Shown here piece by piece: positions 1,574 through 54,321 of a stretch of DNA of 64,000 nt. The stretch comes from Trypanosoma brucei (taxonomy: Eukaryota), in contig CM000208.1 of assembly GCA_000002445.1 (NCBI GenBank), positions 2,912,001-2,976,000 of the forward strand, written 5' to 3'. How positions within the stretch are numbered: the first letter of the stretch is position 1; each line of letters opens with the position of its first letter. The notes under the pieces are model-generated. The model saw only the letters and a program-made list of their open reading frames with translations, was not told the origin of the DNA and did not search any database. The translations under genes and the position numbers were made by a program.

Positions 1574-2689
1574 TCACCGCTTGCCGCATGTTGCGTATAA
1601 CCGTCCTCTACGAACCTTGAAGCGCGAAGGTCTGTACTGCTTTTTCTCACCGAAGTACTCACGCAACTGCGCATACTCCTCCTCCTTAACATTGTGAATC
1701 ATCAATGAACTGTGACTAAGAGGCCCCACCCAACCCTTTCCGTGAAGGTTATGAAAACGGCACATTGGCTCGCCGACGAACAAGGGCTGGTAACCCATTT
1801 CGTAGAGTACACGCCCCATAAGTAAGTCTTCGTGTTGCATGTACAGGGAGGTAAATTCATCCTCCCGCTCTTTGCTGTACGGCACGTCGACAAGTTTCTT
1901 TAGGGGTTCGTATGTCAGGAATTGTTCTATCACCTCTCTCGAAGCGGTGTAAAGACCCCCAGTTGCGAACAACAAAGGCATGAAGCGTGCGTTAACAATG
2001 TTCCCCCAATATAAACGGCGACGTGGTAGAGCACGAAGGTCAGCAAGGTACTGCGGGGTGTGCACAAACATGTCGTCATCCGACTTGGCAACATAATTAA
2101 CATTAGGGAGGAGCCGCAGCATCAGACTAAACCACTTGTACATTTTACGACTCATACCGATCTCAGCATCGGGGCCCCAGTACCTGCCGTCCTGTCCAAT
2201 TACCTTGTTCGTACTTACACGGCCCTCCTTGATTGGGAGAGCGATGATATCTTGCCAACGCAACCCCTCCTCCACTAACTGGGGCGAATGCGTGTAGTTA
2301 TGATCTGGATGGCGCGCGAGAACAAAGGTAACGAGCAAATCTCCAGTAAAGTTATTACTCCTCCTCGCGACGCCTTGGTATTGCCAGCAGGTCAAACGCT
2401 GAAGATGGCGCCTGCGTCGTCTCACGGCATTATCGGGCGACAATACACCGAGCATGACGAGGAAATTTCGTTCCCTCCACGCACGCACAACATCCGGGGG
2501 CACGTACTGCAGAGACTCCCGATCCTTTTCGGTATAGTCGAACTCCGGGAGTGGCGGGGGGGCCGAGAAGCTCGCTTGGGAGGCCTCCCGTACAATACGT
2601 TTGCTCCTCGTTGAAAAAATCAATAGGATTGCCACGAAAGTAAGGCAGACGAGGATCAGTCCCCTCCTACTCAAAATTTGTCCAACCAT
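1574..2689 (-). CDS. Type II membrane glycosyltransferase of the trypanosome GT67 family (UDP-Gal/UDP-GlcNAc-dependent, beta3GnT-like)
   Basis: 371-aa ORF. It has an N-terminal signal anchor (LILVCLTFVAILLIF) and a DxD-type motif (YVAKSDDDMFVHT). The overall pattern matches the expanded T. brucei glycosyltransferase family, judged from memory of family signatures. Confidence 0.65.
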   Translation of the reverse strand: MVGQILSRRGLILVCLTFVAILLIFSTRSKRIVREASQASFSAPPPLPEFDYTEKDRESLQYVPPDVVRAWRERNFLVMLGVLSPDNAVRRRRRHLQRLTCWQYQGVARRSNNFTGDLLVTFVLARHPDHNYTHSPQLVEEGLRWQDIIALPIKEGRVSTNKVIGQDGRYWGPDAEIGMSRKMYKWFSLMLRLLPNVNYVAKSDDDMFVHTPQYLADLRALPRRRLYWGNIVNARFMPLLFATGGLYTASREVIEQFLTYEPLKKLVDVPYSKEREDEFTSLYMQHEDLLMGRVLYEMGYQPLFVGEPMCRFHNLHGKGWVGPLSHSSLMIHNVKEEEYAQLREYFGEKKQYRPSRFKVRRGRLYATCGKR

Positions 2690-3595
2690 GCTGGGGTCCT
2701 TTCTTTCCTTGTGTGGTGGGGCGGTGCAAGAGGGGATGAGGAGACGGATAATAGTTGAAGAGGAAGGATGCGAGGCGGGCGGTTACGCTTCCACTGAAAC
2801 AAGTAATGCCACACACAACCCCAACGGAACCCAATGATTCACTGTCGAATTAATCAACAATAATGCCAATCACAAGCACCATGAGCAACGAACGATATCA
2901 CCTTCTACCAAATCAGGCGCACCAACAACAACGCGTTCTGTCACACACAACAGATGTGTGCTGATTGGGTAAACCTGCTAGAACTCCCTCAACGGTTAGC
3001 AGCTAAACAATTGAAGGCGTCCGCATTACACAACCCCTCGACAACCGCAAAAAGATTTACAATGTTCCTGACCATTCACCGTTCTTGCAGGAGACGCAGC
3101 AAATGACTGCCATCCGTTCCCTCCCCGTACCATTCGGCGTCAACGTTGCCTTCGGTATCGCACTGGGGAACCTTGCTAACAGCGCCACCAACCCAACAAT
3201 TAGAACCGCCAGCAATACTTCACCTGGTTGCCGACTTTACTGCACGGTGGCGCCCACACGCTGAAGAAAAACAGTCGCGATGCAAGTAGAGGTTTACTCA
3301 TAAACTGGGCAACTTTGGATAAATGGTTGTACATTCGTGCCTCAGTAGTGACGAGCGGAACACAACTGCCCATACACCTACGCAGTGCGATAGAGCGCAG
3401 CGACTTGGTTGTCACCACAACCCGCGACTGCTCACCGTGGCCACCATTACCCGAATGCGAGGGGTTCGGATTCCTTGCACGTATATGGCGTCACAATCTT
3501 TACTTAGCGGTTGTCCTTTCGTCCAGGGCGGGAAAAAAAAAACACCCAAGCGAAGCGGCTTTCCAACCGACGCATTCCAAGAAACTTTTGATTGG

Positions 3596-3997
3596 CTAGT
3601 ACCCCGGCGGACGAGGGAGGTTCTGCACGCCTCTCACGACAGCACCTGCGCCATCTATGGGGGTGATGCCCCATAGCCTGTAGCGCAGGTAGCAAAAGGC
3701 AAAGTAAAGCAGAATCATAATTGGGCCCAAGACTGAGATGTTTGCCACCGTCAGCAATTTCTTAATTTTGAACTTTTGGTCCACGGGCACTTTCTCAAGT
3801 TTATCTTCGAAAACGGACAGCTCCTCCTTGCGCTGTTTCCATCGGCGGTAGGACCAGCGATTGATAGGGTGGCTATCCTTACTTACCTCCCAATAGCCGC
3901 GCTCGCGTAGTGTATCTTTCTTCAATGTTTTGTTGAATGCGTAAAGGCGCTCGGCGTTAATTCTTCCCATTGCGCCTTTGCGCACAAAGTTAGCCAT
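3596..3997 (-). CDS. Small hypothetical protein (133 aa) with a basic N-terminal region and one C-terminal hydrophobic segment, so possibly a tail-anchored membrane protein
   Basis: ORF in the same orientation as the polycistron. A purine-rich tract (polypyrimidine on the minus strand) lies upstream. No family recognised. Confidence 0.4.
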   Translation of the reverse strand: MANFVRKGAMGRINAERLYAFNKTLKKDTLRERGYWEVSKDSHPINRWSYRRWKQRKEELSVFEDKLEKVPVDQKFKIKKLLTVANISVLGPIMILLYFAFCYLRYRLWGITPIDGAGAVVRGVQNLPRPPGY

Positions 3998-4204
3998 CGG
4001 TGACGATGTCCGCTACTATTTCTTCCTACTGCACGGCGGTCTCCACAGAACACCGAGAATGAAAGAGGGAAAGGAGAAGGACAGTCTCTCACACTCTCTG
4101 TGAAGTGAAAGTGACACACTCCCCGCTCAATTTTTTCTTTAACCATGCCACCAACCCAGCCCCGAACTAAAAAAACAAACAAACGTTACCCAAAGGCCGA
4201 CTAT

Positions 4205-40479: not shown

Positions 40480-43400
40480 TCAGAAGAAAAGAGCGGGCCT
40501 CTCCACCAAGGTCGAGTTTGTGCGTGCAAATTTGCTACGTGCCGGTGCATCACGCTGCTTATTCAGTGAAAAGGTCCGTCGCCGCACATAACCATTCTGG
40601 TTGTTGCTACTGCTTCGGGAATCCCAACGCATCCCTGCAGCAGCATCAACCGACACTGAAGACCTCGACCGCAACAATCCTTTGGGTGCGTCACGCTGCG
40701 GGCGCTGGGAATGTCCTCTCTTTAACGAAGTTTGAAGGGATGTAGCGCGTATCAATTGGGAAGTGGTGATGGGCTGTCCAACCTGACACCGCAGCAACTC
40801 AGGATTCCGTTTCATTGCCTTCCGCCTGACAAGGTCGCTATGGTGCTTGTGGGCTGTTACGGTTGCCGTTACGTGCTGTCGCCGCCGTTCCGCGAGTCCG
40901 AGTCGGCGTGACACCTCATCGGTCGTACGCTGCTTCACCGCCAGTTGGTGCTGAAGCACAGCTAATTTCATGTCCCGTTCCCGAGACTCGTGCTGGTGGC
41001 GGTTTTTCAGTACGTGTTTATTAGCCTCCTGAATGCGTATTTCCTCTTTTGCCTTATTCAGTTTAGCAGTCAGCTCCGCCACTTCACGCTGAGAATTGCA
41101 ATATTCTTCGTTCAACTTTTCCCACTCAATCTGCACTTCACGCAGTTGCCTCTCAGATGTGCGTTGCTTCATATTGTGCTCCTCAATGTATGTGTAGAGG
41201 TGAGCAATTTGTCCTTCCATCTGTTCCCGTTCATCCATATAATCCTGGTCAAGTGCAACGAGGCTCTTGTATTCGTTCTCTCGGTGTAGCAATCGCTCTT
41301 GCAAGAGCCGGTTCTCACACTCCAAGTCCTCAATCCGATAGTCGCGCTCTCTACTGCAAAGGATTTCATCTTCTAGTTGCTTCTTCAGGGTTCGCACCTG
41401 GCTGCGCAACTGCACATTCTCGTGGCCCTGGTGTAGCGATGCGGATCCAGAGTTTTCCACTACGTCACCACCATACCCCACTGACATGAAGCGTGCCTTC
41501 TGTTGTGGAGTTAGCAGAATCCATATACTACGAAATGCCTCGTCTTTTTTCTGCATCTCCTGAAGTAAGGCGCAGTGCTCCTTGTTGCCTCGTTCAAGTT
41601 CCTCCTCTGTACTCGTCAAACGACTTTGCAGTACATCACAGAGATTTCTCTGATCCTCAAAGGCAGTTGTCAATCGTTCACATTCTTCAGCGCGCTCACC
41701 AGACGCCTTGAACCACGCAACTGTCTCTTCACGAATAACACGTTCAGTATATTCATGAAGAAGTTTAAGGTTGAGCTCTTCCAATTGGTCCGTTAATCCC
41801 GTGTTTTCGTTCGTCACCCTCTCTAACCGTTGCCGAAGTTCCTCGCAGCTTTTTTCCGTCTGCACAATATGTTTTCTTGCCTCCAGGAGCTCTGCCATAG
41901 TACGCTTCTGCTCACTGCGCATCGCTTCCACGGTCTTCGCCATTACCTGCTTTTGCTCGCTCATGCTATCAAACTGTTCTTGCATCCACCGAAAAGTGTC
42001 CGTTACCTTATGAAGCAACTCACTAGTTCCTACCTCCAATACGGCCTCTTCAAGAGTTTGTTGCGCTTCATCGCACTGCCGTACTCGTTGCTCCAGTTCC
42101 TGCCGAAGCTCCTCGGCTACGTCCCCACGCGACTCCAGTGAACAGAGATCCCGTTCGCGTTCACGCAAGACACTCTGGAAAATAGCACACTGGCGCTCTA
42201 GAGCCACCACATGGTCCCGAATCACTGGATCTTCGGCGCTGTTGGCGCCAGATGCATTGGCTAGTGAGTTTTCCGTGTTCGTTGCCGCATCACCATTTAC
42301 CTTCTGGGGTTGTTCAGGTTCCTTTCCTTCATGATCCATACCATCGTTTGAATTGGGAGCATGCTTCTCCCTTCGTGTTAGGGATGAAAGTTGCTTTTCA
42401 ATGTTCACCTCTTCTTGAAGTGTGGCGACACGGTGGCGCAAAGTTTCAATTTCCCGCGTAAGATTTCCATAAGCTTCCTCAAAACTACACCCATTCCTCA
42501 TAAGCAAATCTCTTACTCTTTCTTTTGTCTTTGTTAGAACGCACCGTTTTGCCGTTGTAGCAAAGTCAAGCGAACTCTTTGTTTCCGCAGCACTGCGTTT
42601 GTCGAGTGACACAGTCGCGATAAGAAGAAGATAACAGTCAGCGAGAGTCGATGCAAGGTAAAGCGTGAGCATCGACTCTCGGACTGGAAGTACATCCGCC
42701 TCCTCGGCCGTAGCCCTAATTACGGAGTGCAGAACTGAAAGTGACTTGTTTATGGCAATAGCTTCCCCTAGTTCGTCACCCACCACTCCTGTTCGCTTTA
42801 CACGCTCCGACCCTGCCAAATCACCCAAAGTTAAGCGACTCGTAAACACTGGAATACCGCCAACACACTTTGTTACATGTAGGGAAAGCAGTACATGCGA
42901 CCGGGAACTGCGTGCGTTTAACGCGTGGTGACTGACAAAACGCTTTCTCTGCGCTTCAGCGATGCGTGCAATTGCAAGAGTTGCATTCTGCACGAGGTAA
43001 CGGGGCTCGGGAACCGCGGTGCCCAAAGGTTTTTGGAGCAGCATACCGTGTTCTGATTTCCCTCTCCCCAGCAAGTTGTAGGCATTGTTGGTGTATATTT
43101 GTATATACCACAATTCTATAATGTCGTTCTCAGCGTCAAGGTTGTCAAACAAAGCATTGATAAAGGCGGGTGCCAAAACGTTAATTGTGTGCGTCTTCCC
43201 GCTCCCCGTTTGCCCGTAGCAGAGGACACAAGCATTGAAGCCAGCCCTCAGCTGCTCAACTATACCCGGAACTATCGACTCACATATTTCGCTATCACTC
43301 ACTGACGGGCCAAAGACACGACCAAACTCATACGTACGTTGCACCTCTTTTGCCCCATCGGCAGTTGGTGTTATGACTGTAAGCATGTTCCCCTCTTCGG

Positions 43401-43887
43401 TTCCGGCGATGGGTGCGAAACAGGGTACCGGCCGAGTTGCGCCCCTTCCGGTCACCACAGGCCCGCCGTTAATATTGGAACTACTAGAAAGGCTCATGTT
43501 TGAGAGACTACCCCTCTCATCGCCCTGTCCGCCACCACCAATATTTGCTGCCTCTTCGGCACTTTTGGCACATTGGTTGGCACTGCCGAGACGGGCACTT
43601 TCTCGCCGACAACCTGTCCGTGGTGTTGTTGCTAACGTTCCAGTTTCAATAACGTACCTCAGGAGATTGCTATTGTCACTAGAAGGTTTTACACGGACTG
43701 CAACCCTCACAGCATCCTGGCTACTCTGCGACCCCCGCGGTGTCCGCTCAACCTTTCCACGGCAGCGGACAGGCGTACTCCCCTCCCGTTTCACTGTTGA
43801 CTGAGTTGTCACCGGTGTCGTCGCACCGATTTGAGGTATACCCGCCAGTACCTGAGCTGAGGATGAAGAAGACATCATCTGCCTCAC
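40480..43887 (-). CDS. Kinesin with a motor domain in the N-terminal third (after an extension of about 50 aa) and a long coiled-coil stalk
   Basis: GQTGSGKTHTI, SSRSHVLLSL, LGDLAGSERV. The C-terminal half is heptad-rich (EEL/QQL repeats). 1135 aa. Confidence 0.9.
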   Translation of the reverse strand: MRQMMSSSSSAQVLAGIPQIGATTPVTTQSTVKREGSTPVRCRGKVERTPRGSQSSQDAVRVAVRVKPSSDNSNLLRYVIETGTLATTPRTGCRRESARLGSANQCAKSAEEAANIGGGGQGDERGSLSNMSLSSSSNINGGPVVTGRGATRPVPCFAPIAGTEEGNMLTVITPTADGAKEVQRTYEFGRVFGPSVSDSEICESIVPGIVEQLRAGFNACVLCYGQTGSGKTHTINVLAPAFINALFDNLDAENDIIELWYIQIYTNNAYNLLGRGKSEHGMLLQKPLGTAVPEPRYLVQNATLAIARIAEAQRKRFVSHHALNARSSRSHVLLSLHVTKCVGGIPVFTSRLTLGDLAGSERVKRTGVVGDELGEAIAINKSLSVLHSVIRATAEEADVLPVRESMLTLYLASTLADCYLLLIATVSLDKRSAAETKSSLDFATTAKRCVLTKTKERVRDLLMRNGCSFEEAYGNLTREIETLRHRVATLQEEVNIEKQLSSLTRREKHAPNSNDGMDHEGKEPEQPQKVNGDAATNTENSLANASGANSAEDPVIRDHVVALERQCAIFQSVLRERERDLCSLESRGDVAEELRQELEQRVRQCDEAQQTLEEAVLEVGTSELLHKVTDTFRWMQEQFDSMSEQKQVMAKTVEAMRSEQKRTMAELLEARKHIVQTEKSCEELRQRLERVTNENTGLTDQLEELNLKLLHEYTERVIREETVAWFKASGERAEECERLTTAFEDQRNLCDVLQSRLTSTEEELERGNKEHCALLQEMQKKDEAFRSIWILLTPQQKARFMSVGYGGDVVENSGSASLHQGHENVQLRSQVRTLKKQLEDEILCSRERDYRIEDLECENRLLQERLLHRENEYKSLVALDQDYMDEREQMEGQIAHLYTYIEEHNMKQRTSERQLREVQIEWEKLNEEYCNSQREVAELTAKLNKAKEEIRIQEANKHVLKNRHQHESRERDMKLAVLQHQLAVKQRTTDEVSRRLGLAERRRQHVTATVTAHKHHSDLVRRKAMKRNPELLRCQVGQPITTSQLIRATSLQTSLKRGHSQRPQRDAPKGLLRSRSSVSVDAAAGMRWDSRSSSNNQNGYVRRRTFSLNKQRDAPARSKFARTNSTLVERPALFF

Positions 43888-44336
43888 CTAGCAGGCAGGT
43901 GTACACTATTGTCACACTTCTTCCGTCTGATTCCCTCACCCCTTACGGTTCCAAGTAATGTCACGGGATTCCAAACCCTTATTTACTAAAAACAGGGTCA
44001 GATCTGTTGAGCGGTTCACCAAGTAGGTCCCAACCGCCTTTCGGAGCCCAGTGCGTCTTACCTACTTTATCCCTTGGGCGTTAAACCAATATAATTGACG
44101 TAGATCTTTGCCTGAAGCTAACTCTACAGAGTAATACAGCTCTCCAGCTACACCTAAAAAGAAGTGAGTTGCCCAACCAATTTAACTCTCTTCGTTTCTT
44201 CCATTTAATAAAGCAGAAATACATGTGAAAACAACATTTGGAAAGAGAGTTGCACAACCAAGTACATAAGCAGTCTCCACAGTAAAGCAAAATTAAAAGC
44301 GCATGCCCGTGAGCTTAGAGCATAGGAGGGCAATGG

Positions 44337-44655
44337 CCGTCGCCTCAACTTCACCACGTACGACATTCGACCCCATCTTCGGCATGTGATCCGTTCCCAT
44401 CGTCACAGGAAGTGACTCACCGGTCAGTGCTGCTTCGTCAACGTCAATCACACCTTCGTTAATCGTGCAGTCAGCGGGAACGGCGGAACCAGACCCAAGC
44501 TTCACAAGGTCACCGGGAACCAGTAATGCGGCGTCTATCTGCTGCCAGGTACCGTCACGGTAAGCGGTCGCAATAGGTTTCAAAGAGTTCTTCAGTGCAG
44601 CGACCGCATCACCAGCTTTTATCGTCTCATACCACCCAATGAGAGCGTTAGCGAG
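44337..44655 (-). pseudogene. 319-bp relic of a P-type H+-ATPase gene (codons about 119-224 of the intact copies), flanked by unrelated sequence
   Basis: About 99% nucleotide identity to 53224-53541 and 49512-49830. The homology ends abruptly at both sides. It carries MGTDHMPK where both intact copies have MGTEHMPK. Confidence 0.85.
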
Positions 44656-46631
44656 TAATGTTAGAACACCGAACCACCATGTTCTGGCTATTTTTTTGTA
44701 CTACTAATACTCCTTTCCACCCCTTTGTTCGTGTGTGTGGAGGGAGTATTAAAACCAGAGCACGAACACTGCGTGCACTGCAGAGAACATATGTGGAAAT
44801 TCAAATATTAACTGTGACGAGATTGAACATTTGGTGCGGTTCCTTCTTGACATAACCGCGTATCAGAAGGAACACGTTAGGGAATTTCCTAACCGACCAT
44901 AGTTTTTCGCCACATGCACACGTGGCTTATTCCTTTGCTACCTCCTTCATGCGGCAATTGCCGCCGCGCACCGTAACGGTAAACCCAGTGTATGACCTCT
45001 CAAGAAATACAATGGTATGCATTTTCGCAGGATGACAAAAGAAGAGGACCTATATCATCTTTGTCCCTTCGCAATTTGCTCCGCTCCCCTTGAAAAAAAA
45101 AAAATCACATGACCGTACCGCCAAGAAACTTTCACCGCGAGAAGAAAAAAGAGAAGAATAAAATGAGCTTCGAGGGTCAGAAGCAGTTTGAAGGTAACAG
45201 GTGAGCGTAGCGAAAGGAACAACGGCCTAAATAGAGTGATATTCTCCCACAATAACCTTTTCCTCTTCGCTTATTTGGCGTTCCCTTACTGATAGCACTT
45301 TTACCGGTAAACAAACTACCACGCATGCGACCGACCACAGGTTTTGAAAAAAAAAAGCTTTAGATTTTATTTAACAATCTCATTTTCCCCTCTGACTACG
45401 TCCGCACGGAAAAAAAATCAGAAAATAATTTAAGAGAAAGGTACAAAAAAATAAAGGAAAAACGTGCCAACACATTGCCCTCGTTTCTACTGGTTTTGTT
45501 TTATTTGATACCTTCGATACTGCGCCCCAAAACGACGGAAACCGCGAGTCAGTTCAGTAAAAGATTTGTGCACGATCCAAGGTTTGTAAGATTTCTTTTT
45601 CATCCTTTACCGTTTCTTTGGGAAGGATGGATGGAAATGCGACCGTCATCTCCCTTTTTTCTGTCTCCACGCGCTCCCGCTCAAATTTCCCTTTACTCCT
45701 CCTCTTTTTTCTTCGAAAGGGTGGGGCATTCGCATACGCGTACGTGCAGAAATACACTTACGGATATTTGCAATAATGTGCAAAGGGAGATGATCGGCAC
45801 GTTAAAGGAGAAAACGAAAAATATTGCATCACAACCGAATTACTCCCGCGGCGCCACTCGCCCCTTTTTTTTCTCCCAAGTACCCAATACCACAAACCAC
45901 CCACTTTGAAAAGTTCCCCCCCTTTTTTTCCTTAGCCTCTGCTTTTTCCTAACCTCACTCCCCTGGCAATAATGTAGTTCCTCTTCTCCATTTCTCTTTC
46001 TCTCCCCATAAATGCCCGGGTTACACTGAGCACCAAAATATTTCACACAATGGTGCGGTGCTACTACGATGAAGCGAAGGAAAAAAAAAAGATGGATAAC
46101 CTCACAAATTTCACTCGTGTTTTCTTCTCAATTTCTCATTGATTGCATTCGTAAGCTTTCCCCCTTTTACATATATCTTAAAATCTTTTTACAATAAACA
46201 CTACTCGCTTCCCTCCTCTTTCCGCTATCATCAATGTAAGTACAACAAAATTACGCAAGCACCCAAGCTGTAAACGCGTGCTTCGTTCATAAGAAAATGA
46301 CGCTCTATCTTTTTTTTCCTTTACCTTTCATTACATTATCAATCTTTCGCAGTGTGTCAGTCCTATCGTTTGCCCTCCCACACACACACTTACACACACA
46401 CCATCATTACCAACTACTAAAAGTTCAAAACAAATAAACAATAACAACGATAATAAAGTCACCTCGTCATCTCTCCACTTTACGAGAGGGAATCATGACC
46501 GGTCCATCGAAATAATGCCGAGGCACATCGGAGGTTGCGAAATGGCCAGTTTTTTTCTCATTACACTTCGTCCCGTGTTTAGGAATTTTTTTAAACTGAA
46601 GGCTCTAATTACAGAGTCGACCGCGCGAGAA

Positions 46632-46670
46632 CCACCACCACCACCACTACCACCACCACCACCACCACCA
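46632..46670. repeat. (CCA)n trinucleotide microsatellite, about 13 units with one CTA interruption, followed by an A-rich tract
   Basis: Read directly from the sequence. Confidence 0.9.
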
Positions 46671-47444
46671 AAAAAACAAACAAACAAACAAAGCGTTTAC
46701 GATAAAAAAAAAAAAGAATTAAGGAAAAGATCTTTTATTTCTCAGCATACACTCATGCTACTGCTGAAGCGTGCGACTGGGGTGACAAAATTAGAGGTTT
46801 ACGCTGCCGCTAATGGACAGGAGAACATCAGGCAACTGTTGAAATGCATATGGATGAGAACAATACCACACGCATGCAGCTCGCTACGTCCACGGTTGCG
46901 AGGGGAAATTGAATTATAACGACGGAACAATACCAAAAAAATCCGCTTTCCCACAAGTTAATGCACTGAAACATCGCAAAAAAAAGATGCATGAAAAGAA
47001 TATCCTCTCCAACAACAATACCCCACCTCTAGAGTTACCGATCACAGCCATGTCGCACACATAAAATACTCACAATAAAGACCGTTATATGTCTTTTCAT
47101 TAAAGAAAAGAAAAAAAATTAATAAAGCCAACATATAAGGGAAATAATGAGGATGAGGCAACAACGGAAGCGCACTGTTCAACCCCACAACAGCTTCGTG
47201 ATTCCCCACCTTCACCCACCCACCTTCACGCTCATTCAAAGAAAAAAAACATACACAAAAACTTACTAAGCATCCCTGATTAAAATGAAGGCCAACAGAT
47301 ACCACATTTCTAACCCCAATTCGCGAAAAGGAAAATAACACACGCACGCGCCTCCATATTAGCACAAACCAAACGAGAAAAGCGCAGCTTTATAAAAAAA
47401 AATCAATGTGATTGTTCCGAAAGGAGAAAAAAAATATAATATTT

Positions 47445-50183
47445 TTAAATAGGTTCCTTAGACGACTTAGCATTATAAACAATTTCTTTCCCACCGCTTG
47501 CACGAGACACACAGCCAAATATGTCGAAGGCCTCCATTAGCATGTGAGTCAAAACCTTCACGACATCTTGGACGATCCACCACAAAATGCAATATATCCA
47601 AACCCAAAGTGGATACAATCTATCCGCAACAGTTTCACCTCGTGCAAGACCCTCGACAGGAACACCATCAGAACTTGATTTCTTCCAAACCGAGGCGGCG
47701 ATCGTCGAGATTACCAGTGAGATCACCGCACCGACCAGCAGTATAGTGCCCGGAGCCATCGAGAAAAAGAACCTTCCACCAGTACGTGAGGAGAATAGAG
47801 TCAAGAAGTCAGAAATCGATATCTTGAGGTACAGGAGAGTAACTATTTTGCCCTCCTTCAAGGAAGGAATGTTGAGTTTGCCAAACCAAGAGTTGGGGTA
47901 CCTTTTCTCATCATAAGCATCAAGAGCCATCCACAGCAGTAGTAGAGACGAGGCACAGGCAACAACAGACATAATTATAGCGCTTGTGAACACAACAGGA
48001 ATGTTCCAACGCTGCGGAAGCTTCGAGGGCACCACACGGTCATATCCAATGGTCATCAGGCACCCGTCGTTCAGGAGCGTGATCAGCATGAACATCATCA
48101 CTGGGAGGTAGAAAACCTGGAATTCGGGGTTCTCAATTCCATAGTCGTGAGGTGTCAACGAGAAGCAGGCGATAAAAAAGAAGCACACCAACTGCATTGT
48201 GGCGGAAATACGGTATGTTAGAAAAGACAACATACGTTGGAACACCTGGCGCGATACAAACATCGCATCAACAACAACACTCAAACCAGGGTCTGTCAGC
48301 ACCATGTCTGCCGCGGCACGAGCGGCGTCTGTCGCGCCCTGTACAGCAATACCGACGTCCGCACGTTTCAGGGCAGGCGCGTCGTTCACACCATCACCAG
48401 TCATCGCGCACGTGTACCCGCGCTGCCGAAGCGCCTCAACGATCAAAAACTTGTGCTCGGGGAAGACCTGTGCGAACCCGCCGACACTCAGCATCATGTC
48501 ACCGTACTTCTCGCCAAGGTCGCTGGGCATATCGTTGACATCCACCTTGGGAAGCTTCTCGGCGGTTAGGATGTTCGGATCAAGGTCCAGCATGCGGCAC
48601 ATTTCCTTCGCAATGAGCACATGGTCACCAGTGATCATCTTTACATCCACGCCATACTGCCTACTACGGCGAATTGTCTCCTTCGTGTCCGGGCGCGGGG
48701 GATCGAGGAACGTCAGGATTCCACAGAGATGCCAACGACCCGCGGAGTCTGTTTTCGCCACAGAGAGGCATCGGATACCGCGCGACGCCAATTTGTCAAT
48801 GATATCGACCACAGAGTCATTGATCTCATCTTGATTGTGCACCATCTCTATAATAACGTGTGGTGCGCCTTTCGTCACACTGAACTTCTCACCACTTCGC
48901 TTATCAACCAATGTAGCGGCCGTTCGTTTCGTCGTTGGATCAAATGGCACGAACTCAAGCTGCTCGTAGTTGTCGCACTCGTCCAGATCTGCAGCACCAA
49001 GTACCATCGTGTCCAGTGCATCACGGGGAGGCTCACGCCACTTTGCTGCAAGCGCGGAAAGTACAAGCAGTGAACGCAGATCGTGACCCTTCTCAAATGT
49101 GAAGCACTGTTCCTGAATCTCCATCTTGTTCAACGTCAGAGTACCGGTTTTGTCAGAGCAAAGCATGTTCACACCAGACATTGTCTCAATGGCTGTCAGT
49201 CTCGTCACAATGATTTTGTGCTTCGACAGCTTCTTTGAACCCACAGCGAGAGTGGTCGTCACAACAATCTCCAAAGCAATAGGAATGGATACCACAAGCA
49301 CTACAACAGCGAACTGCAAGGCATCACGGAACTTTTGCTTGAAATTTACCATCAGATAGATGAAGCAAATCAAGCAAAGTACGAACGAGAAACTCGACAA
49401 GATGACCATCACGCGCATGAGAATTATACGGATACTGCCAATGTCAGCCTCCACAGACTGAAGTAGCGTTGCCGTCTTGCCAAAAAAGGTGCTCTGACCT
49501 GTGTATTGCACCGTCGCATCAACTTCACCACGTACGACATTCGACCCCATCTTCGGCATGTGTTCCGTTCCCATCGTCACAGGAAGTGACTCACCGGTCA
49601 GTGCTGCTTCGTCAACGTCAATCACACCTTCGTTAATCGTGCAGTCAGCGGGAACGGCGGAACCAGACCCAAGCTTCACAAGGTCACCGGGAACCAGTAA
49701 TGCGGCGTCTATCTGCTGCCAGGTACCGTCACGGTAAGCGGTCGCAATAGGTTTCAAAGAGTTCTTCAGTGCAGCGACCGCATCACCAGCTTTTATCGTC
49801 TCATACCACCCAATGAGAGCGTTAGCGAGCTGAATGCCGAGCAGGACGGCACCATCAGCAAAGTGCTGTAACGCAAACTGGATTATTATGACAATCCACA
49901 AAACAATCGGCATAGGGCCCCATAGATTCCGCAAAAATATCAGCCAACTGGGTGTTTTCTTTTCCGGCAGCTCGTTACGACCGTATTTAAGCAACAACTC
50001 CTCTGCTTCCGCGGATGTCAATCCCTTCGAGGGCGGCACCAGTGGTACACTGCCATCATCACCCTCACGGTGCTCACTGATAGCCTTTGATAGCACAGAT
50101 TGGCGGCGTTGCGGTTTCTGTGGCTTGTGCACTTCACCGGCGTCGTTGGTTCCCGGAACACCCTTTGGTCCAGTATCCCCCAT
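47445..50183 (-). CDS. Plasma-membrane-type P3A H+-ATPase (proton pump), tandem copy A, 912 aa
   Basis: TGES (ALTGESLPV), DKTGTLT phosphorylation site, TGDGVNDAPAL and MITGDHV motifs, 10 TM segments. Matches trypanosomatid HA1/HA2/HA3 and Leishmania H1A/H1B. Confidence 0.95.
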   Translation of the reverse strand: MGDTGPKGVPGTNDAGEVHKPQKPQRRQSVLSKAISEHREGDDGSVPLVPPSKGLTSAEAEELLLKYGRNELPEKKTPSWLIFLRNLWGPMPIVLWIVIIIQFALQHFADGAVLLGIQLANALIGWYETIKAGDAVAALKNSLKPIATAYRDGTWQQIDAALLVPGDLVKLGSGSAVPADCTINEGVIDVDEAALTGESLPVTMGTEHMPKMGSNVVRGEVDATVQYTGQSTFFGKTATLLQSVEADIGSIRIILMRVMVILSSFSFVLCLICFIYLMVNFKQKFRDALQFAVVVLVVSIPIALEIVVTTTLAVGSKKLSKHKIIVTRLTAIETMSGVNMLCSDKTGTLTLNKMEIQEQCFTFEKGHDLRSLLVLSALAAKWREPPRDALDTMVLGAADLDECDNYEQLEFVPFDPTTKRTAATLVDKRSGEKFSVTKGAPHVIIEMVHNQDEINDSVVDIIDKLASRGIRCLSVAKTDSAGRWHLCGILTFLDPPRPDTKETIRRSRQYGVDVKMITGDHVLIAKEMCRMLDLDPNILTAEKLPKVDVNDMPSDLGEKYGDMMLSVGGFAQVFPEHKFLIVEALRQRGYTCAMTGDGVNDAPALKRADVGIAVQGATDAARAAADMVLTDPGLSVVVDAMFVSRQVFQRMLSFLTYRISATMQLVCFFFIACFSLTPHDYGIENPEFQVFYLPVMMFMLITLLNDGCLMTIGYDRVVPSKLPQRWNIPVVFTSAIIMSVVACASSLLLLWMALDAYDEKRYPNSWFGKLNIPSLKEGKIVTLLYLKISISDFLTLFSSRTGGRFFFSMAPGTILLVGAVISLVISTIAASVWKKSSSDGVPVEGLARGETVADRLYPLWVWIYCILWWIVQDVVKVLTHMLMEAFDIFGCVSRASGGKEIVYNAKSSKEPI

Positions 50184-50225
50184 TTGTATATTCCTTTGGC
50201 CTTTACTACCTTAGATGTTACAAGT

Positions 50226-50247
50226 CTTCGGGAAGGGAAGAAACGAG
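50226..50247 (-). promoter_or_regulatory. Polypyrimidine tract plus AG acceptor region (trans-splicing signal) immediately upstream of H+-ATPase copy A
   Basis: Minus-strand sequence ctcgtttcttcccttcccgaag is followed by AG dinucleotides within 40 nt of the ATG. The same block is conserved upstream of copy B. Confidence 0.4.
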
Positions 50248-51132
50248 TGCACAAGTCAGTGTTTCAGCAGTTGCACGACACCGGTTAATTCGCGACACGG
50301 AACGTCGAAAGAAAGGACGCAAAATCCCCCAGGATACGTTGTTGGGCCAAGTGACCTCAATGGTTATCAAAGGTATTAATGAACTATAGGTCCGGAAGTT
50401 GTTGGTAAACTCGACCCTCCCGCATTGAAAGTGTACATACAAGTAGCCACATGCACATTAGAGCTGCAATGAGCAACATCACAAAAACGCCTTTACACTC
50501 TCCATCCAATTCCCTTTCTTTTCAGTATTTTTCTTACTTTTGCTTGCAATTATTCTCTTATTAATGTTGGATACATTATTCGGTGTTGGTGGCACCAATA
50601 CCCTGCCCCCCCTTACTGCACTTTCCCATACTTTCCCCCCACCCATCATGCAAAGTTATACATCACTTATGCGATGTTGTTTACATTACCCCGTACACAT
50701 CCACTTCTTGTGTCCCTCCATCCCCCCACAGGCCATTCGTCGCGGGTTCTCCACCAAATGTCCCTGCTGCGTTGCGGGTCCCTCTGCACACACGCTGAGT
50801 TGTCGCACAGCATCCAATCACCCAACTCAAACAACCGGAGAAGAGGGAAGGTAAAGAGTTAAACGCTCTGCAGTACGCAACGCATCAAAAGCACATCTGA
50901 AATGAGAAACACATGGACGTGTAATTGACTGAATCCATGACACGGCCTATAAACTCGGTAAAGCATCCACTTTGCGTGCCACACAAGTGCAGCACGCGAA
51001 GTTCTTCCTTTCCCACTCCAGTCCGTTGCTACCGAGATCGCAGAGGAACATTCCACTCACAACGAGCAGGAAACAAACTAGGGCACGTCAGACGGAGGAA
51101 CATCATTGTCACGTCATGTTACTTTAGATTCA

Positions 51133-53895
51133 TTATAGCGTAGGTTCTTTAGGTGCACCACCCTCACCATCTTTACACACGCTGCCACACTCAACATCGG
51201 CCCCTCTCCCAGAACGCGACACACAGCCAAATATGTCGAAGGCCTCCATTAGCATGTGAGCAAGAACCTTCACGACATCTTGGACGATCCACCACAAAAT
51301 GCAATATATCCAAACCCAAAGCGGCAACAGCTTCGCTGCGGTATCTCCTCCAACCGCAAGACCCTCCGTCGGCACACCATCAGAACTTGATTTCTTCCAA
51401 ACCGAGGCGGCGATCGTCGAGATTACCAGTGAGATCACCGCACCGACCAGCAGTATAGTGCCCGGAGCCATCGAGAAAAAGAACCTTCCACCAGTACGTG
51501 AGGAGAATAGAGTCAAGAAGTCAGAAATCGATATCTTGAGGTACAGGAGAGTAACTATTTTGCCCTCCTTCAAGGAAGGAATGTTGAGTTTGCCAAACCA
51601 AGAGTTGGGGTACCTTTTCTCATCATAAGCATCAAGAGCCATCCACAGCAGTAGTAGAGACGAGGCACAGGCAACAACAGACATAATTATAGCGCTTGTG
51701 AACACAACAGGAATGTTCCAACGCTGCGGAAGCTTCGAGGGCACCACACGGTCATATCCAATGGTCATCAGGCACCCGTCGTTCAGGAGCGTGATCAGCA
51801 TGAACATCATCACTGGGAGGTAGAAAACCTGGAATTTGGGGTCCTCAATTCCATAGTCGTGAGGTGTCAACGAGAAGCAGGCGATAAAAAAGAAGCACAC
51901 CAACTGCAGCGTGGCGGAAATACGGTATGTTAGAAAAGACAACATACGTTGGAACACCTGGCGCGATACAAACATCGCATCAACAACAACACTCAAACCA
52001 GGGTCTGTCAGCACCATGTCTGCCGCGGCACGAGCGGCGTCTGTCGCGCCGTGTACAGCAATACCGACGTCCGCACGTTTCAGGGCAGGCGCGTCGTTCA
52101 CACCATCACCAGTCATCGCGCACGTGTACCCGCGCTGCCGAAGCGCCTCAACGATCAAAAACTTGTGCTCGGGGAAGACCTGTGCGAACCCGCCGACACT
52201 CAGCATCATGTCACCGTACTTCTCGCCAAGGTCGCTGGGCATATTATTGACATCCACCTTGGGAAGCTTCTCAACGGTTAGGATGTTCGGATCAAGGTCC
52301 AGCATGCGGCACATTTCCTTCGCAATGAGCACATGGTCACCAGTGATCATCTTTACATCCACGCCATACTGCCTACTACGGCGAATTGTCTCCTTCGTGT
52401 CCGGGCGCGGGGGATCGAGGAACGTCAGGATTCCACAGAGATGCCAACGACCCGCGGAGTCTGTTTTCGCCACAGAGAGGCATCGGATACCGCGCGACGC
52501 CAATTTGTCAATGATATCGACCACAGAGTCATTGATCTCATCTTGATTGTACACCATTTGTAGTATCACGTGTGGTGCGCCTTTCGTCACACTGAACTTC
52601 TCACCACTTCGCTTATCAACCAATGTAGCGGCCGTTCGTTTCGTCGTTGGATCAAATGGCACGAACTCAAGCTGCTCGTAGTTGTCGCACTCGTCCAGAT
52701 CTGCAGCACCAAGTACCATCGTGTCCAGTGCATCACGGGGAGGCTCACGCCACTTTGCTGCAAGCGCGGAAAGTACAAGCAGTGAACGCAGATCGTGACC
52801 CTTCTCAAATGTGAAGCACTGTTCCTGAATCTCCATCTTGTTCAACGTCAGAGTACCGGTTTTGTCAGAGCAAAGCATGTTCACACCAGACATTGTCTCA
52901 ATGGCTGTCAGTCTCGTCACAATGATTTTGTGCTTCGACAGCTTCTTTGAACCCACAGCGAGAGTGGTCGTCACAACAATCTCCAAAGCAATAGGAATGG
53001 ATACCACAAGCACTACAACAGCGAACTGCAAGGCATCACGGAACTTTTGCTTGAAATTTACCATCAGATAGATGAAGCAAGCCAAGCAAAGTACGAACGA
53101 GAAACTCGACAAGATGACCATCACGCGCATGAGAATTATACGGATACTGCCAATGTCAGCCTCCACAGACTGAAGTAGCGTTGCCGTCTTGCCAAAAAAG
53201 GTGCTCTGACCTGTGTATTGCACCGTCGCCTCAACTTCACCACGTACGACATTCGACCCCATCTTCGGCATGTGTTCCGTTCCCATCGTCACAGGAAGTG
53301 ACTCACCGGTCAGTGCTGCTTCGTCAACGTCAATCACACCTTCGTTAATCGTGCAGTCAGCGGGAACGGCGGAACCAGACCCAAGCTTCACAAGGTCACC
53401 GGGAACCAGTAATGCGGCGTCTATCTGCTGCCAGGTACCGTCACGGTAAGCGGTCGCAATAGGTTTCAAAGAGTTCTTCAGTGCAGCGACCGCATCACCA
53501 GCTTTTATCGTCTCATACCACCCAATGAGAGCGTTAGCGAGCTGAATGCCGAGCAGGACGGCACCATCAGCAAAGTGCTGTAACGCAAACTGGATTATTA
53601 TGACAATCCACAAAACAATCGGCATAGGGCCCCATAGATTCCGCAAAAATATCAGCCAACTGGGTGTTTTCTTTTCCGGCAGCTCGTTACGACCGTATTT
53701 AAGCAACAACTCCTCTGCTTCCGCGGATGTCAATCCCTTCGAGGGCGGAAGCAGCGGTACACTGCCATCATCACCCTCACGGTGCTCACTGATAGCCTTT
53801 GATAGCACAGATTGGCGGCGTTGCGGTTTCTGTGGCTTGTGCACTTCACCGGCGTCGTTGGTTCCCGGAACACCCTTTGGTCCAGTATCCCCCAT
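51133..53895 (-). CDS. Plasma-membrane-type P3A H+-ATPase (proton pump), tandem copy B, 920 aa, with a different C-terminal tail
   Basis: Same motifs as copy A and near-identical over about the first 860 codons. The last 60 codons diverge (..GSVCKDGEGGAPKEPTL versus ..KEIVYNAKSSKEPI). Confidence 0.95.
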   Translation of the reverse strand: MGDTGPKGVPGTNDAGEVHKPQKPQRRQSVLSKAISEHREGDDGSVPLLPPSKGLTSAEAEELLLKYGRNELPEKKTPSWLIFLRNLWGPMPIVLWIVIIIQFALQHFADGAVLLGIQLANALIGWYETIKAGDAVAALKNSLKPIATAYRDGTWQQIDAALLVPGDLVKLGSGSAVPADCTINEGVIDVDEAALTGESLPVTMGTEHMPKMGSNVVRGEVEATVQYTGQSTFFGKTATLLQSVEADIGSIRIILMRVMVILSSFSFVLCLACFIYLMVNFKQKFRDALQFAVVVLVVSIPIALEIVVTTTLAVGSKKLSKHKIIVTRLTAIETMSGVNMLCSDKTGTLTLNKMEIQEQCFTFEKGHDLRSLLVLSALAAKWREPPRDALDTMVLGAADLDECDNYEQLEFVPFDPTTKRTAATLVDKRSGEKFSVTKGAPHVILQMVYNQDEINDSVVDIIDKLASRGIRCLSVAKTDSAGRWHLCGILTFLDPPRPDTKETIRRSRQYGVDVKMITGDHVLIAKEMCRMLDLDPNILTVEKLPKVDVNNMPSDLGEKYGDMMLSVGGFAQVFPEHKFLIVEALRQRGYTCAMTGDGVNDAPALKRADVGIAVHGATDAARAAADMVLTDPGLSVVVDAMFVSRQVFQRMLSFLTYRISATLQLVCFFFIACFSLTPHDYGIEDPKFQVFYLPVMMFMLITLLNDGCLMTIGYDRVVPSKLPQRWNIPVVFTSAIIMSVVACASSLLLLWMALDAYDEKRYPNSWFGKLNIPSLKEGKIVTLLYLKISISDFLTLFSSRTGGRFFFSMAPGTILLVGAVISLVISTIAASVWKKSSSDGVPTEGLAVGGDTAAKLLPLWVWIYCILWWIVQDVVKVLAHMLMEAFDIFGCVSRSGRGADVECGSVCKDGEGGAPKEPTL

Positions 53896-53937
53896 TTGTA
53901 TATTCCTTTGACCTTTACTACCTTAGATGTTACAAGT

Positions 53938-53959
53938 CTTCGGGAAGGGAAGAAACGAG
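53938..53959 (-). promoter_or_regulatory. Conserved polypyrimidine tract and splice-acceptor region upstream of H+-ATPase copy B
   Basis: Identical to the copy A block. 5' flank homology between the copies extends about 100 nt upstream of the ATG and then breaks. Confidence 0.4.
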
Positions 53960-54033
53960 TGCACAAGTCAGTGTTTCAGCAGTTGCACGACACCGGTGGA
54001 TTTGCATCATCTGATCTGAATCTCTTTGTTTCT

Positions 54034-54187
54034 ATACCACCCAATGAGAGCGTTAGGGAGCTGAATGCCGAGCAGGACGGCACCATCAGCAAAGTGCTGT
54101 AACGCAAACTGGATTATTATGACAATCCACATAACAATCGGCATAGGGCGCCATAGATTCCGCAAAAATATCAGCCAACTGGGTGTT
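54034..54187 (-). pseudogene. 154-bp relic of H+-ATPase (codons about 75-126) located just upstream of copy B's 5' flank
   Basis: 4 mismatches in 154 bp against 53516-53669. It is followed directly by a (GTT)7T9 microsatellite and is in sense orientation relative to the intact genes. Confidence 0.8.
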
Positions 54188-54214
54188 GTTGTTGTTGTTG
54201 TTGTTTTTTTTTTT
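54185..54214. repeat. (GTT)7 followed by T9
   Basis: Read directly. It abuts the right-hand ATPase relic. Confidence 0.9.
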
Positions 54215-54321
54215 GCGGAAGCTTGTTGAGTTGTTATTTGAGTATCGTCGCAGTTCTCTTTTGTTTTATTACCATTTTTGTTATTTTGACGGGGTTTTTT
54301 TTGCTGCTTTTACTGTGATTT

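What the first reader, a model, noticed from the sequence alone, without database searches (positions are those of the whole stretch)
44337..44655. Relic of a third, slightly divergent H+-ATPase copy stranded 2.8 kb downstream of the array
A 319-bp segment covering codons about 119-224 is about 99% identical to the intact genes. It carries a D-for-E change in the conserved MGTEHMPK block that neither intact copy has, and at the gcctc/gcatc polymorphism near its low-coordinate end it resembles copy B rather than copy A. It is therefore not a simple copy of A or B. It more likely descends from a third paralog that was largely deleted. That is relevant because T. brucei is reported to have three HA genes. 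It also suggests an ongoing birth-and-death process in this array.
Basis: seen in the sequence. Interest (0 to 1): 0.5.

Follow-up and report, generated by a model that had tools for sequence, protein, structure and literature searches.

The report
Stranded proton-pump gene fragment, ordinary relic
A 319-base internal piece of the trypanosome plasma-membrane proton-pump gene sits as non-coding debris between the two-gene array and the next gene; it is real and shared by all Trypanosoma brucei-group assemblies checked, but it is an ordinary gene fragment kept similar to the working genes by sequence exchange, not evidence of a distinct third pump gene.

Summary
Window 44337..44655 (gene sense on the - strand) copies codons 119-224 of the P-type H+-ATPase genes. 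It has 1 mismatch to copy B (TbHA3) and 2 to copy A (TbHA1), and unrelated sequence on both sides. The window is T. b. brucei TREU927 chromosome 10.

The same fragment, with the same two junctions, is present in T. b. gambiense DAL972, T. b. equiperdum IVM-t1 and T. equiperdum OVI. It is therefore real and older than the subspecies split. No assembly has an intact third copy at this position.

The argument for a divergent third paralog fails:
- The D-for-E change is private to TREU927.
- The other variable sites carry the same two alleles in the fragment and in the intact genes, in strain-specific combinations. That is the signature of ectopic gene conversion.

The published third gene, TbHA2, maps to a different fragment. 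A second fragment (F2, 54034..54187, codons about 70-128) lies upstream of copy B. TbHA2 equals the flank upstream of F2, then F2, then the body of copy B.

The fragment cannot encode a pump. How it arose is unresolved: truncated terminal array copy or one-step copied patch. T. cruzi has a truncated copy at the same array edge. This is an ordinary pseudogene relic of low interest.

The parts
44337..44655 (-). F1, the finding: an internal fragment of the P-type H+-ATPase gene (codons 119-224; end of TM2 and first half of the actuator/E1-E2 domain). It is non-coding debris in the intergenic region between TbHA1 and the kinesin gene.
   Evidence: 99.4-99.7% identical to both intact genes, sharp ends; tblastn codons 119-224; Pfam PF00122; stop codons 15 codons upstream in frame, no in-frame ATG before the fragment, stop 15 codons after it.
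49511..49829 (-). Homologous segment in intact copy A (TbHA1).
   Evidence: 2 mismatches to F1.
53223..53541 (-). Homologous segment in intact copy B (TbHA3).
   Evidence: 1 mismatch to F1.
47445..50183 (-). Intact H+-ATPase copy A, 912 aa (TbHA1, XP_823455).
   Evidence: review PMC6884021.
51133..53895 (-). Intact H+-ATPase copy B, 920 aa (TbHA3, XP_823456).
   Evidence: review PMC6884021.
54034..54187 (-). F2: a second stranded H+-ATPase fragment (codons 77-128; with a (CAA)n expansion the homology reaches about codon 70). It lies 138 bp upstream of the copy B ATG. In gene coordinates it overlaps F1 by 27 bp. It encodes the part of published TbHA2 that differs from TbHA3.
   Evidence: 98.05% to both genes.
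44656..47444 (-). 2.8-kb unique spacer between the copy A stop codon and F1. No repeat, no Rfam family, no Pfam domain.
43879..44336 (-). 458-bp unique sequence between F1 and the kinesin start codon. It contains polypyrimidine tracts followed by AG, the expected trans-splicing signals for the kinesin mRNA (inferred).
40480..43878 (-). Kinesin gene, identical to T. b. brucei TREU927 XP_823454. It identifies the window and was the single-copy anchor used to fetch orthologous loci.

Best explanation
F1 is a dead, doubly truncated remnant of H+-ATPase coding sequence at the kinesin-proximal edge of the TbHA3-TbHA1 array.

Most likely origin (inferred): a partial or whole extra array copy once lay downstream of TbHA1, made by tandem duplication or unequal exchange, and later deletions removed all but 320 bp. 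This happened before the T. brucei subspecies diverged.

Current state (shown by comparison):
- It has no coding function. It lacks a start codon, TM1, the DKTGT phosphorylation site and everything after codon 224.
- It is still a recombination partner of the intact genes. Ectopic gene conversion keeps moving alleles between the intact genes and F1. This is why F1 is about 99.5% identical to them and why its variable sites mirror theirs.
- The D-for-E difference is a private, recent point change in the TREU927 fragment.

Practical effects: the fragment is a 319-bp direct repeat 5.2 and 8.9 kb from its sources. That can mediate deletions, and it confuses assemblers.
For: Reality and age: the same fragment with identical 5' and 3' junctions is found in DAL972 (L002 9224-9543), IVM-t1 (L008 18954-19273, collinear with window 63616..43048 at 98.6%) and OVI (both junctions present). 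T. vivax and T. grayi have no fragment between the H+-ATPase gene and the kinesin gene.

No coding capacity: frame closed on both sides; only half of one domain.

Gene conversion:
- F1 is polymorphic among strains at alignment positions 22 (C/T) and 319 (G/T). Those are exactly the two sites, with the same two alleles, that vary among intact copies.
- At position 22 all three paralogous sites are C in TREU927 and all three are T in IVM-t1.
- DAL972 and IVM-t1 differ at 3 of 1,968 flank positions but at 3 of 319 fragment positions. The Poisson probability of 3 or more is about 0.013.

D-for-E is private: (DAL972 and IVM-t1 F1 both have GAA).

Same-sense orientation of both F1 and F2 is what duplication-derived relics require.

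Precedent at the syntenic edge: in T. cruzi GCA_015033625.1 the H+-ATPase copy next to the kinesin gene is cut off after codon 513.

Background: concerted evolution and mosaic copies are usual in T. brucei tandem arrays (PMC1855330, PMC2854126).
Against: - Neither flank of F1 retains any trace of array-unit sequence: no 5' flank, no codons 1-118 or 225 onward, no 3' UTR. This holds in sensitive DNA searches, anchored extension alignment and tblastn.
- The relic model therefore needs at least two further deletions with breakpoints inside the coding sequence. A one-step insertion would explain the same picture with fewer events.
- No strain with a longer remnant or an empty site was available, so the order of events is inferred, not observed.
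- One of the three DAL972/IVM-t1 differences in the fragment could be a long-read error. Without it the excess is weaker (P about 0.09), although the allele-identity argument stands.
Confidence: 0.55

Rival explanations
1. One-step templated patch. A break in the intergenic DNA upstream of the kinesin gene was repaired by copying about 320 bp from a nearby H+-ATPase gene through template switching or microhomology-mediated replication-based repair. No third gene copy ever existed there. F2 would be a second such patch.
For: The edges are sharp, both flanks are unique, and no other array-unit sequence is present. This needs one event per fragment instead of two or three. The two fragments copy adjoining, overlapping parts of the gene, codons about 70-128 and 119-224. 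End joining in trypanosomes relies on microhomology (general knowledge, not tested here).
Against: Both patches are in the same orientation as the source. Template switching would give that only about one time in four, whereas duplication relics always give it. No empty-site allele is available to read microhomology. 154-320 bp is long for typical templated insertions. T. cruzi shows that real truncated copies form at this edge.
Confidence: 0.27
2. One reading: F1 descends from a distinct, slightly divergent third paralog (the third HA gene of the literature) that was largely deleted.
For: F1 differs from both intact TREU927 copies. Three HA genes were reported for T. brucei (PMC6884021).
Against: The only unique coding difference (D) is absent from the F1 orthologues of DAL972 and IVM-t1. 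The other differences are alleles shared with the intact genes. TbHA2 has E at that site, and its distinctive N-terminus maps to F2 and the flank upstream of F2 at 54031..54368, not to F1. IVM-t1, a chromosome-level long-read assembly, has two intact copies plus F1 and F2, exactly as in TREU927.
Confidence: 0.05
3. F1 and F2 are the two halves of a single older H+-ATPase segment (codons about 70-224), or footprints of one complex rearrangement that rebuilt the array between them. The 27-bp overlap would be the duplicated break site.
For: In gene coordinates F2 ends at 49803 and F1 starts at 49829, so together they are contiguous with a 27-bp overlap. They bracket the array on either side in the same orientation.
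Against: Two random segments of these lengths in a 2.7-kb gene would touch or overlap about 18% of the time (my estimate). The gene is ancestral at this locus: T. vivax has the same order of DnaJ gene, 829-aa gene, H+-ATPase gene and kinesin gene. The array was therefore not inserted from elsewhere. F2 is more diverged than F1 (3 of 154 versus 1 of 319), and the two share no derived variant in the overlap.
Confidence: 0.08
4. Assembly artefact: a misplaced read or chimeric clone put H+-ATPase sequence into the spacer.
For: Repeats of this kind do mislead assemblers. The OVI scaffold contains a 5,174-bp loop contig created by collapsing F1 onto the intact gene, joined by 10 Ns.
Against: Identical junctions occur in four independent assemblies.
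Confidence: 0.01

Closest known systems
TbHA1 / TbHA3 (Tb927 chromosome 10 tandem P3A-type plasma-membrane H+-ATPase genes; XP_823455, XP_823456)
   Same: F1 is 99.4-99.7% identical in DNA to codons 119-224 of both genes, has the same orientation, lies in the same transcription direction, and shares their polymorphic alleles.
   Different: F1 is only 106 of 912-920 codons. It has no start codon, no TM1, no phosphorylation or nucleotide-binding domains, and none of the array's 5' flank or 3' UTR.
TbHA2 (Q7Z1X2 / AAM55480, 905 aa), the third H+-ATPase reported from T. brucei
   Same: It is also built with a stranded fragment of the same gene family at the edge of the same array.
   Different: TbHA2 uses the other fragment, F2, plus the A-rich intergenic sequence upstream of it as its N-terminus. 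It is then identical to TbHA3. It has E, not D, at the site that marks F1. In TREU927, DAL972 and IVM-t1, F2 is separated from the gene by a 519-bp repeat period and the upstream frame is closed.
Truncated terminal H+-ATPase copy next to the kinesin gene in T. cruzi (L009 7061-8545, assembly GCA_015033625.1)
   Same: It is a partial copy of the same gene at the same (kinesin-proximal) edge of the syntenic array, in the same orientation.
   Different: The T. cruzi copy keeps its own start and codons 19-513 and is cut only at the 3' side. F1 is cut on both sides and keeps 106 codons. There is no evidence that the two share an origin.
Gene fragments and mosaic copies in T. brucei tandem arrays that evolve in concert by gene conversion (Jackson 2007, PMC1855330; Jackson et al. 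2010, PMC2854126)
   Same: Paralogous sequences share strain-specific alleles. Identity is maintained by recombination rather than by selection on the fragment.
   Different: Those studies analysed complete array members. F1 is a non-coding orphan piece outside the array unit.

Membership tests
Functional P3A-type plasma-membrane H+-ATPase gene | Complete open reading frame of about 900 codons with a start codon | tested here: not met
   in-frame stops 15 codons upstream and 15 codons downstream of the fragment, and no in-frame ATG before it; the longest ORF across it is 96 aa from a TTG.
Functional P3A-type plasma-membrane H+-ATPase gene | Cation_ATPase_N domain, full E1-E2 (actuator and membrane) domain, and HAD-type phosphorylation domain with DKTGT | tested here: not met
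   the intact copies hit PF00690, PF00122 (profile positions 3-181) and PF00702. F1 hits only PF00122 positions 3-83.
Member (third unit) of the TbHA tandem array | Shares the array-unit flanks (the 110-bp 5' flank, the rest of the coding sequence, the 3' region) with the other units | tested here: not met
   no similarity beyond 44337..44655 at DNA or protein level.
Member (third unit) of the TbHA tandem array | An intact or longer copy occupies this position in other strains or subspecies | tested here: not met
   DAL972 and IVM-t1 have the same 320-bp fragment. The longer version in OVI is a scaffolded loop contig with an N gap.
Relic of TbHA2 (the reported third gene) | Carries TbHA2-specific sequence | tested here: not met
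   the TbHA2-specific residues map to 54031..54368 (F2 and its upstream flank). Across codons 119-224 TbHA2 equals TbHA3 (E at the D site).
Unprocessed pseudogene fragment (duplication relic) | Derived from a nearby parent gene, same orientation, no poly(A) or retroposition marks, non-coding, fixed at an orthologous position | tested here: met
   It is an internal gene piece with no A-tail at either junction.
Paralogue taking part in concerted evolution (ectopic gene conversion) | Shares the same segregating alleles with its paralogues, in strain-specific combinations, beyond what flank divergence predicts | tested here: met
   (positions 22 and 319). (DAL972 versus IVM-t1: 3 of 319 in the fragment against 3 of 1,968 in the flanks).
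Expressed element (part of a mature mRNA or small RNA) | Lies inside a mapped UTR or matches an RNA family | tested here: inconclusive
   There is no Rfam match. Four Logan contigs carrying the kinesin gene start at window 44174-44197 and do not reach F1, but their library type is unknown. Splice-site and poly(A) maps are not available with these tools.

The most novel reading that the evidence does not exclude
F1 and F2 are not independent debris. They would be the two ends of one rearrangement: a single ancestral segment (codons about 70-224) split with a 27-bp duplication, or one replication-based event that rebuilt the array. These orphan fragments would act as live recombination partners that create new pump isoforms. 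TbHA2 would be such a product of F2 recombining with TbHA3, and F1 could donate its D207 variant to the working genes.
Probability: 0.1. Interest if true: 0.35.

Novelty: new member of a known kind. Interest (0 to 1): 0.17.

Why it matters
On its own this matters little. It is one more pseudogene fragment beside a trypanosome tandem array.

It has three practical consequences:
1. It is a 319-bp direct repeat of the pump genes that demonstrably breaks short-read assemblies, as in the T. equiperdum OVI loop contig. It can also mislead read mapping, copy-number estimates and RNAi or CRISPR target design for TbHA genes.
2. It shows that non-coding orphan fragments take part in the concerted evolution of the array.
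3. Following it up clarified what the third H+-ATPase gene, TbHA2, is. TbHA2 is the other orphan fragment and its upstream intergenic sequence fused to TbHA3. That arrangement is absent from the three T. brucei-group assemblies that cover this junction (TREU927, DAL972, IVM-t1). This bears on how many pump genes T. brucei really has.

Tried and rejected
- Exact-sequence look-ups of the window's kinesin and both H+-ATPase proteins found nothing. The TREU927 locus is not in the contig index. Orthologous loci had to be reached through cluster relatives.
- I searched for decayed homology in the flanks with sensitive blastn, with extension alignment anchored at each junction and scored against 400 random window positions, and with tblastn at E up to 10. 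Nothing was found for F1. For F2, only a short collinear match (AGCTTCCG.AAAA.AAA) seen by eye suggests the homology extends about 19 nt behind a (CAA)n expansion.
- The apparently longer remnant in T. equiperdum OVI (2,136 bp of gene following the F1 5' junction) was rejected as real. The piece is exactly the 5,174-bp cycle expected from collapsing F1 onto the intact gene. It starts and ends at adjacent bases (47693/47694) and is joined to the kinesin contig by 10 Ns.
- Logan contigs for a 1131-aa kinesin variant stop about 300 bp upstream of the ATG and do not reach F1.
- Canonical cis-splicing as a way to make TbHA2 from the TREU927 arrangement was considered and rejected. The shared 154 bp contains no AG|GT at which an intron of one repeat period could be removed (read).
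- No ncRNA and no protein domain were found in the 2.8-kb spacer.
- The primary TbHA paper (doi 10.1074/jbc.M601057200) is not held, so how TbHA2 was cloned could not be checked.
- T. congolense proteins are in the protein database but have no contig on record, so the closest outgroup locus could not be examined.

Full report
**Identity of the window**

The 1132-aa kinesin encoded at 40480..43878 (- strand) is identical to XP_823454 of Trypanosoma brucei brucei TREU927. The window is therefore chromosome 10 of that strain. All genes in the region lie on the - strand. In the direction of transcription the order is:

- a DnaJ/CSL protein;
- an 850-aa protein with no known domain;
- H+-ATPase copy B (51133..53895, 920 aa, TbHA3);
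- H+-ATPase copy A (47445..50183, 912 aa, TbHA1);
- a 3.5-kb gap;
- the kinesin gene (names from review PMC6884021).

The two pump genes are 98.1% identical from 110 bp upstream of the ATG to about codon 893. Beyond that they have unrelated C-termini and 3' regions.

**The observation**

It is correct in every detail.

- Window 44337..44655 matches 53223..53541 with one mismatch and 49511..49829 with two, in the same orientation, with E about 1e-163.
- Identity stops abruptly on both sides.
- The piece corresponds to codons 119-224 and hits only the first half of Pfam E1-E2_ATPase.
- The private base is at 44389 (GAT, Asp, instead of GAA, Glu, in MGTEHMPK).
- The site where the fragment agrees with copy B and not copy A is 44344.

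I call this fragment F1.

**Is it real, and how old is it?**

Using the kinesin gene as a single-copy anchor, and a short H+-ATPase gene model found with the F1 peptide, I fetched the orthologous interval from other assemblies.

- T. b. gambiense DAL972 (L002) has F1 at 9224-9543 with the same junctions.
- T. b. equiperdum IVM-t1, a chromosome-level assembly (L008), is collinear with window 63616..43048 at 98.6%. It has the same layout: F2, copy B, copy A, spacer, F1.
- T. equiperdum OVI (L001) at first seemed to carry a much longer remnant. That stretch is a 5,174-bp loop contig, exactly the cycle formed when F1 is collapsed onto the intact gene. It begins and ends at adjacent bases and is scaffolded to the kinesin contig through 10 Ns. 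It is an artefact, but both F1 junctions are present in it.

F1 is thus genuine and predates the split of the T. brucei subspecies. T. vivax (L007) and T. grayi (L010) have no pump-gene fragment between the pump gene and the kinesin gene. T. congolense could not be examined.

**The third-paralog argument**

One search aligned F1 from three genomes with the intact copies.

- The D-for-E base is found only in TREU927. F1 of DAL972 and IVM-t1 has GAA, like every intact copy.
- The base at 44336 is also private to TREU927, so the ancestral fragment was 320 bp.
- These are exactly the two sites that vary among intact copies, with the same two alleles, but in different combinations per genome. At position 22 all three paralogous sites are C in TREU927 and all three are T in IVM-t1. 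DAL972 has C in F1 and T in its gene. At position 319 F1 is G in TREU927 and IVM-t1 and T in DAL972. Copy B of TREU927 is G, and copy A of TREU927, both IVM-t1 copies and the DAL972 gene are T.
- All F1 copies share one origin, because their junctions are identical. The same alleles at the same sites therefore cannot be independent mutations. They must have moved between F1 and the genes by ectopic gene conversion.
- A rate comparison points the same way. DAL972 and IVM-t1 differ at 3 of 1,968 aligned flank positions but at 3 of 319 F1 positions. The Poisson probability of three or more is about 0.013, or about 0.09 if one difference is discounted as a possible long-read error.

The near-identity of F1 to the genes therefore says nothing about its age, and its differences say nothing about a separate ancestor.

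**The three reported genes**

The review lists TbHA1 (912 aa, identical to the 912-aa genome gene TB9), TbHA3 (920 aa, identical to the 920-aa genome gene TB8) and TbHA2 (905 aa, 92% identical to the TbHA3 genome gene). I retrieved TbHA2 (Q7Z1X2) from the protein cluster and aligned it.

- From residue 62 onward it is TbHA3 apart from two residues.
- Its first 61 residues are unrelated to any pump.
- tblastn maps residues 1-24 to window 54368..54297 and residues 21-113 to 54309..54031.

That region contains a second orphan fragment that the self-comparison had already shown. F2 (54034..54187) is 98% identical to codons 77-128 of both genes and lies 138 bp upstream of the copy B start codon. 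The two odd residues of TbHA2 (Arg and Met in LWRPMPIVMW) are the F2-specific substitutions. Its run of seven threonines is the (CAA)n microsatellite next to F2.

TbHA2 is therefore the intergenic flank upstream of F2, then F2, then TbHA3. It is the product expected if the 154-bp direct repeats F2 and copy B recombined and deleted the 519 bp between them.

In TREU927, DAL972 and IVM-t1 that deletion is absent, and the upstream frame is closed by a frameshift or a stop. Whether TbHA2 is a strain-specific recombinant allele or a cloning chimera cannot be decided here, because the primary paper is not held. Either way, the third gene of the literature is linked to F2 and not to F1. TbHA2 has Glu at the position that marks F1.

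**What F1 is and does**

- It cannot make a pump. The reading frame is closed 15 codons upstream and 15 codons downstream, with no in-frame ATG before it. It lacks TM1, the phosphorylation site and all later domains.
- The spacer around it contains no Rfam family and no protein domain.
- It lies 458 bp upstream of the kinesin ATG, before polypyrimidine-AG signals. The 3.56-kb TbHA1 mRNA quoted in the review is too short to reach it. It is therefore probably removed during polycistronic RNA processing. That step is an inference.
- Its demonstrable activity is passive. It is a partner in gene conversion with the working genes, and it is a direct repeat that can cause deletions and assembly errors.

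**Origin**

Neither flank keeps any trace of the array unit in sensitive DNA, anchored-extension or protein searches. The data therefore do not show that a full third copy once stood there. Two histories fit.

1. An extra partial or whole copy arose at the 3' edge of the array by tandem duplication or unequal exchange and was later whittled down by deletions.
2. A single templated-patch repair event copied 320 bp into a break.

I favour the first, for two reasons. F1 and F2 both have the orientation of the source, which is required for duplication relics and only a one-in-four expectation for two independent patches. And T. cruzi has a copy truncated after codon 513 at exactly this edge of the syntenic array (L009 7061-8545). 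The preference is moderate (0.55 against 0.27).

One curiosity remains. In gene coordinates F2 ends 27 bp after F1 begins, so together they cover codons about 70-224 contiguously and bracket the array. This could mark a single rearrangement. By my estimate, however, two random segments of these sizes would touch or overlap in about 18% of trials. In addition, T. vivax synteny shows the gene is ancestral at this locus, and F2 is more diverged than F1. I give this reading about 0.08-0.10.

**Verdict**

The sequence observation is confirmed. The relic label is reasonable. The inference of a distinct third paralog, and the link to the three published genes, are not supported.

The feature is an ordinary pseudogene fragment that evolves in concert with its parent genes: a new example of a well-known kind, of low interest. 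The most useful by-products are the explanation of TbHA2 and the warning about assembly and mapping artefacts at this locus.

Noticed in passing
window 54034..54187 (- strand): A second orphan H+-ATPase fragment (F2, codons 77-128, 98% identical to both genes) lies 138 bp upstream of the copy B start codon, 28 bp beyond the end of the array repeat. It is also present in DAL972 and IVM-t1. In gene coordinates it overlaps F1 by 27 bp.
   Followed up: yes
window 54031..54368 plus 51133..53667 (- strand): Published TbHA2 (Q7Z1X2, 905 aa) equals the intergenic sequence upstream of F2, then F2, then the TbHA3 body. That is the product of deleting the 519 bp between the F2 and copy B direct repeats. 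This arrangement is absent from TREU927, DAL972 and IVM-t1, and the upstream frame is closed in all three. TbHA2 may be a strain-specific recombinant or a cloning chimera.
   Followed up: partly
L001 1..5171 (T. equiperdum OVI, CZPT02000209.1): The scaffold end is a 5,174-bp loop contig made by collapsing F1 onto the intact gene. It is joined to the kinesin contig by 10 Ns and mimics a long truncated third copy.
   Followed up: yes
L002 3692..6430 (T. b. gambiense DAL972): Only one H+-ATPase gene is assembled. It has copy B context upstream and copy A context downstream. This is either a collapsed array or a real one-copy allele made by unequal crossover. The DAL972 genome paper notes that assembled copy numbers can be arbitrary.
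   Followed up: no
L009 7061..8545 (T. cruzi GCA_015033625.1): The H+-ATPase copy nearest the kinesin gene is truncated after about codon 513 (called as a 501-aa product). A full copy lies upstream at 1492..4148, with an apparent frameshift near codon 570.
   Followed up: partly
window 54188..54215 (- strand): An A-run plus a (CAA)6 microsatellite sits at the 5' edge of F2 and varies in length between strains. It encodes the poly-Thr run of TbHA2. Homopolymer length differences nearby change the reading frame between strains.
   Followed up: partly
window 47445..47501 versus 51133..51213, and the downstream 3' regions: The two intact genes are homogenised from -110 to about codon 893. After that they have unrelated C-termini (912 versus 920 aa) and unrelated 3' regions. 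Differences between the copies pile up in the last 600 nt: 68 of 93.
   Followed up: no
L006 1..16 (Logan ERR7929159 contig; equivalent to window about 44205): The contig begins with 16 nt that are the reverse complement of the spliced-leader 3' end (AATATAGTACAGAAAC), fused to sense sequence upstream of the kinesin gene. This is probably a library or assembly chimera. The four Logan contigs all stop at window 44174-44197.
   Followed up: no
codon 207 of the H+-ATPase (window 44389 in F1): The Asp seen in the TREU927 fragment is the normal residue at this position in the T. congolense and T. rangeli pumps (MGTDHMPK). The change would be tolerated if it were ever converted into a working gene.
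   Followed up: no
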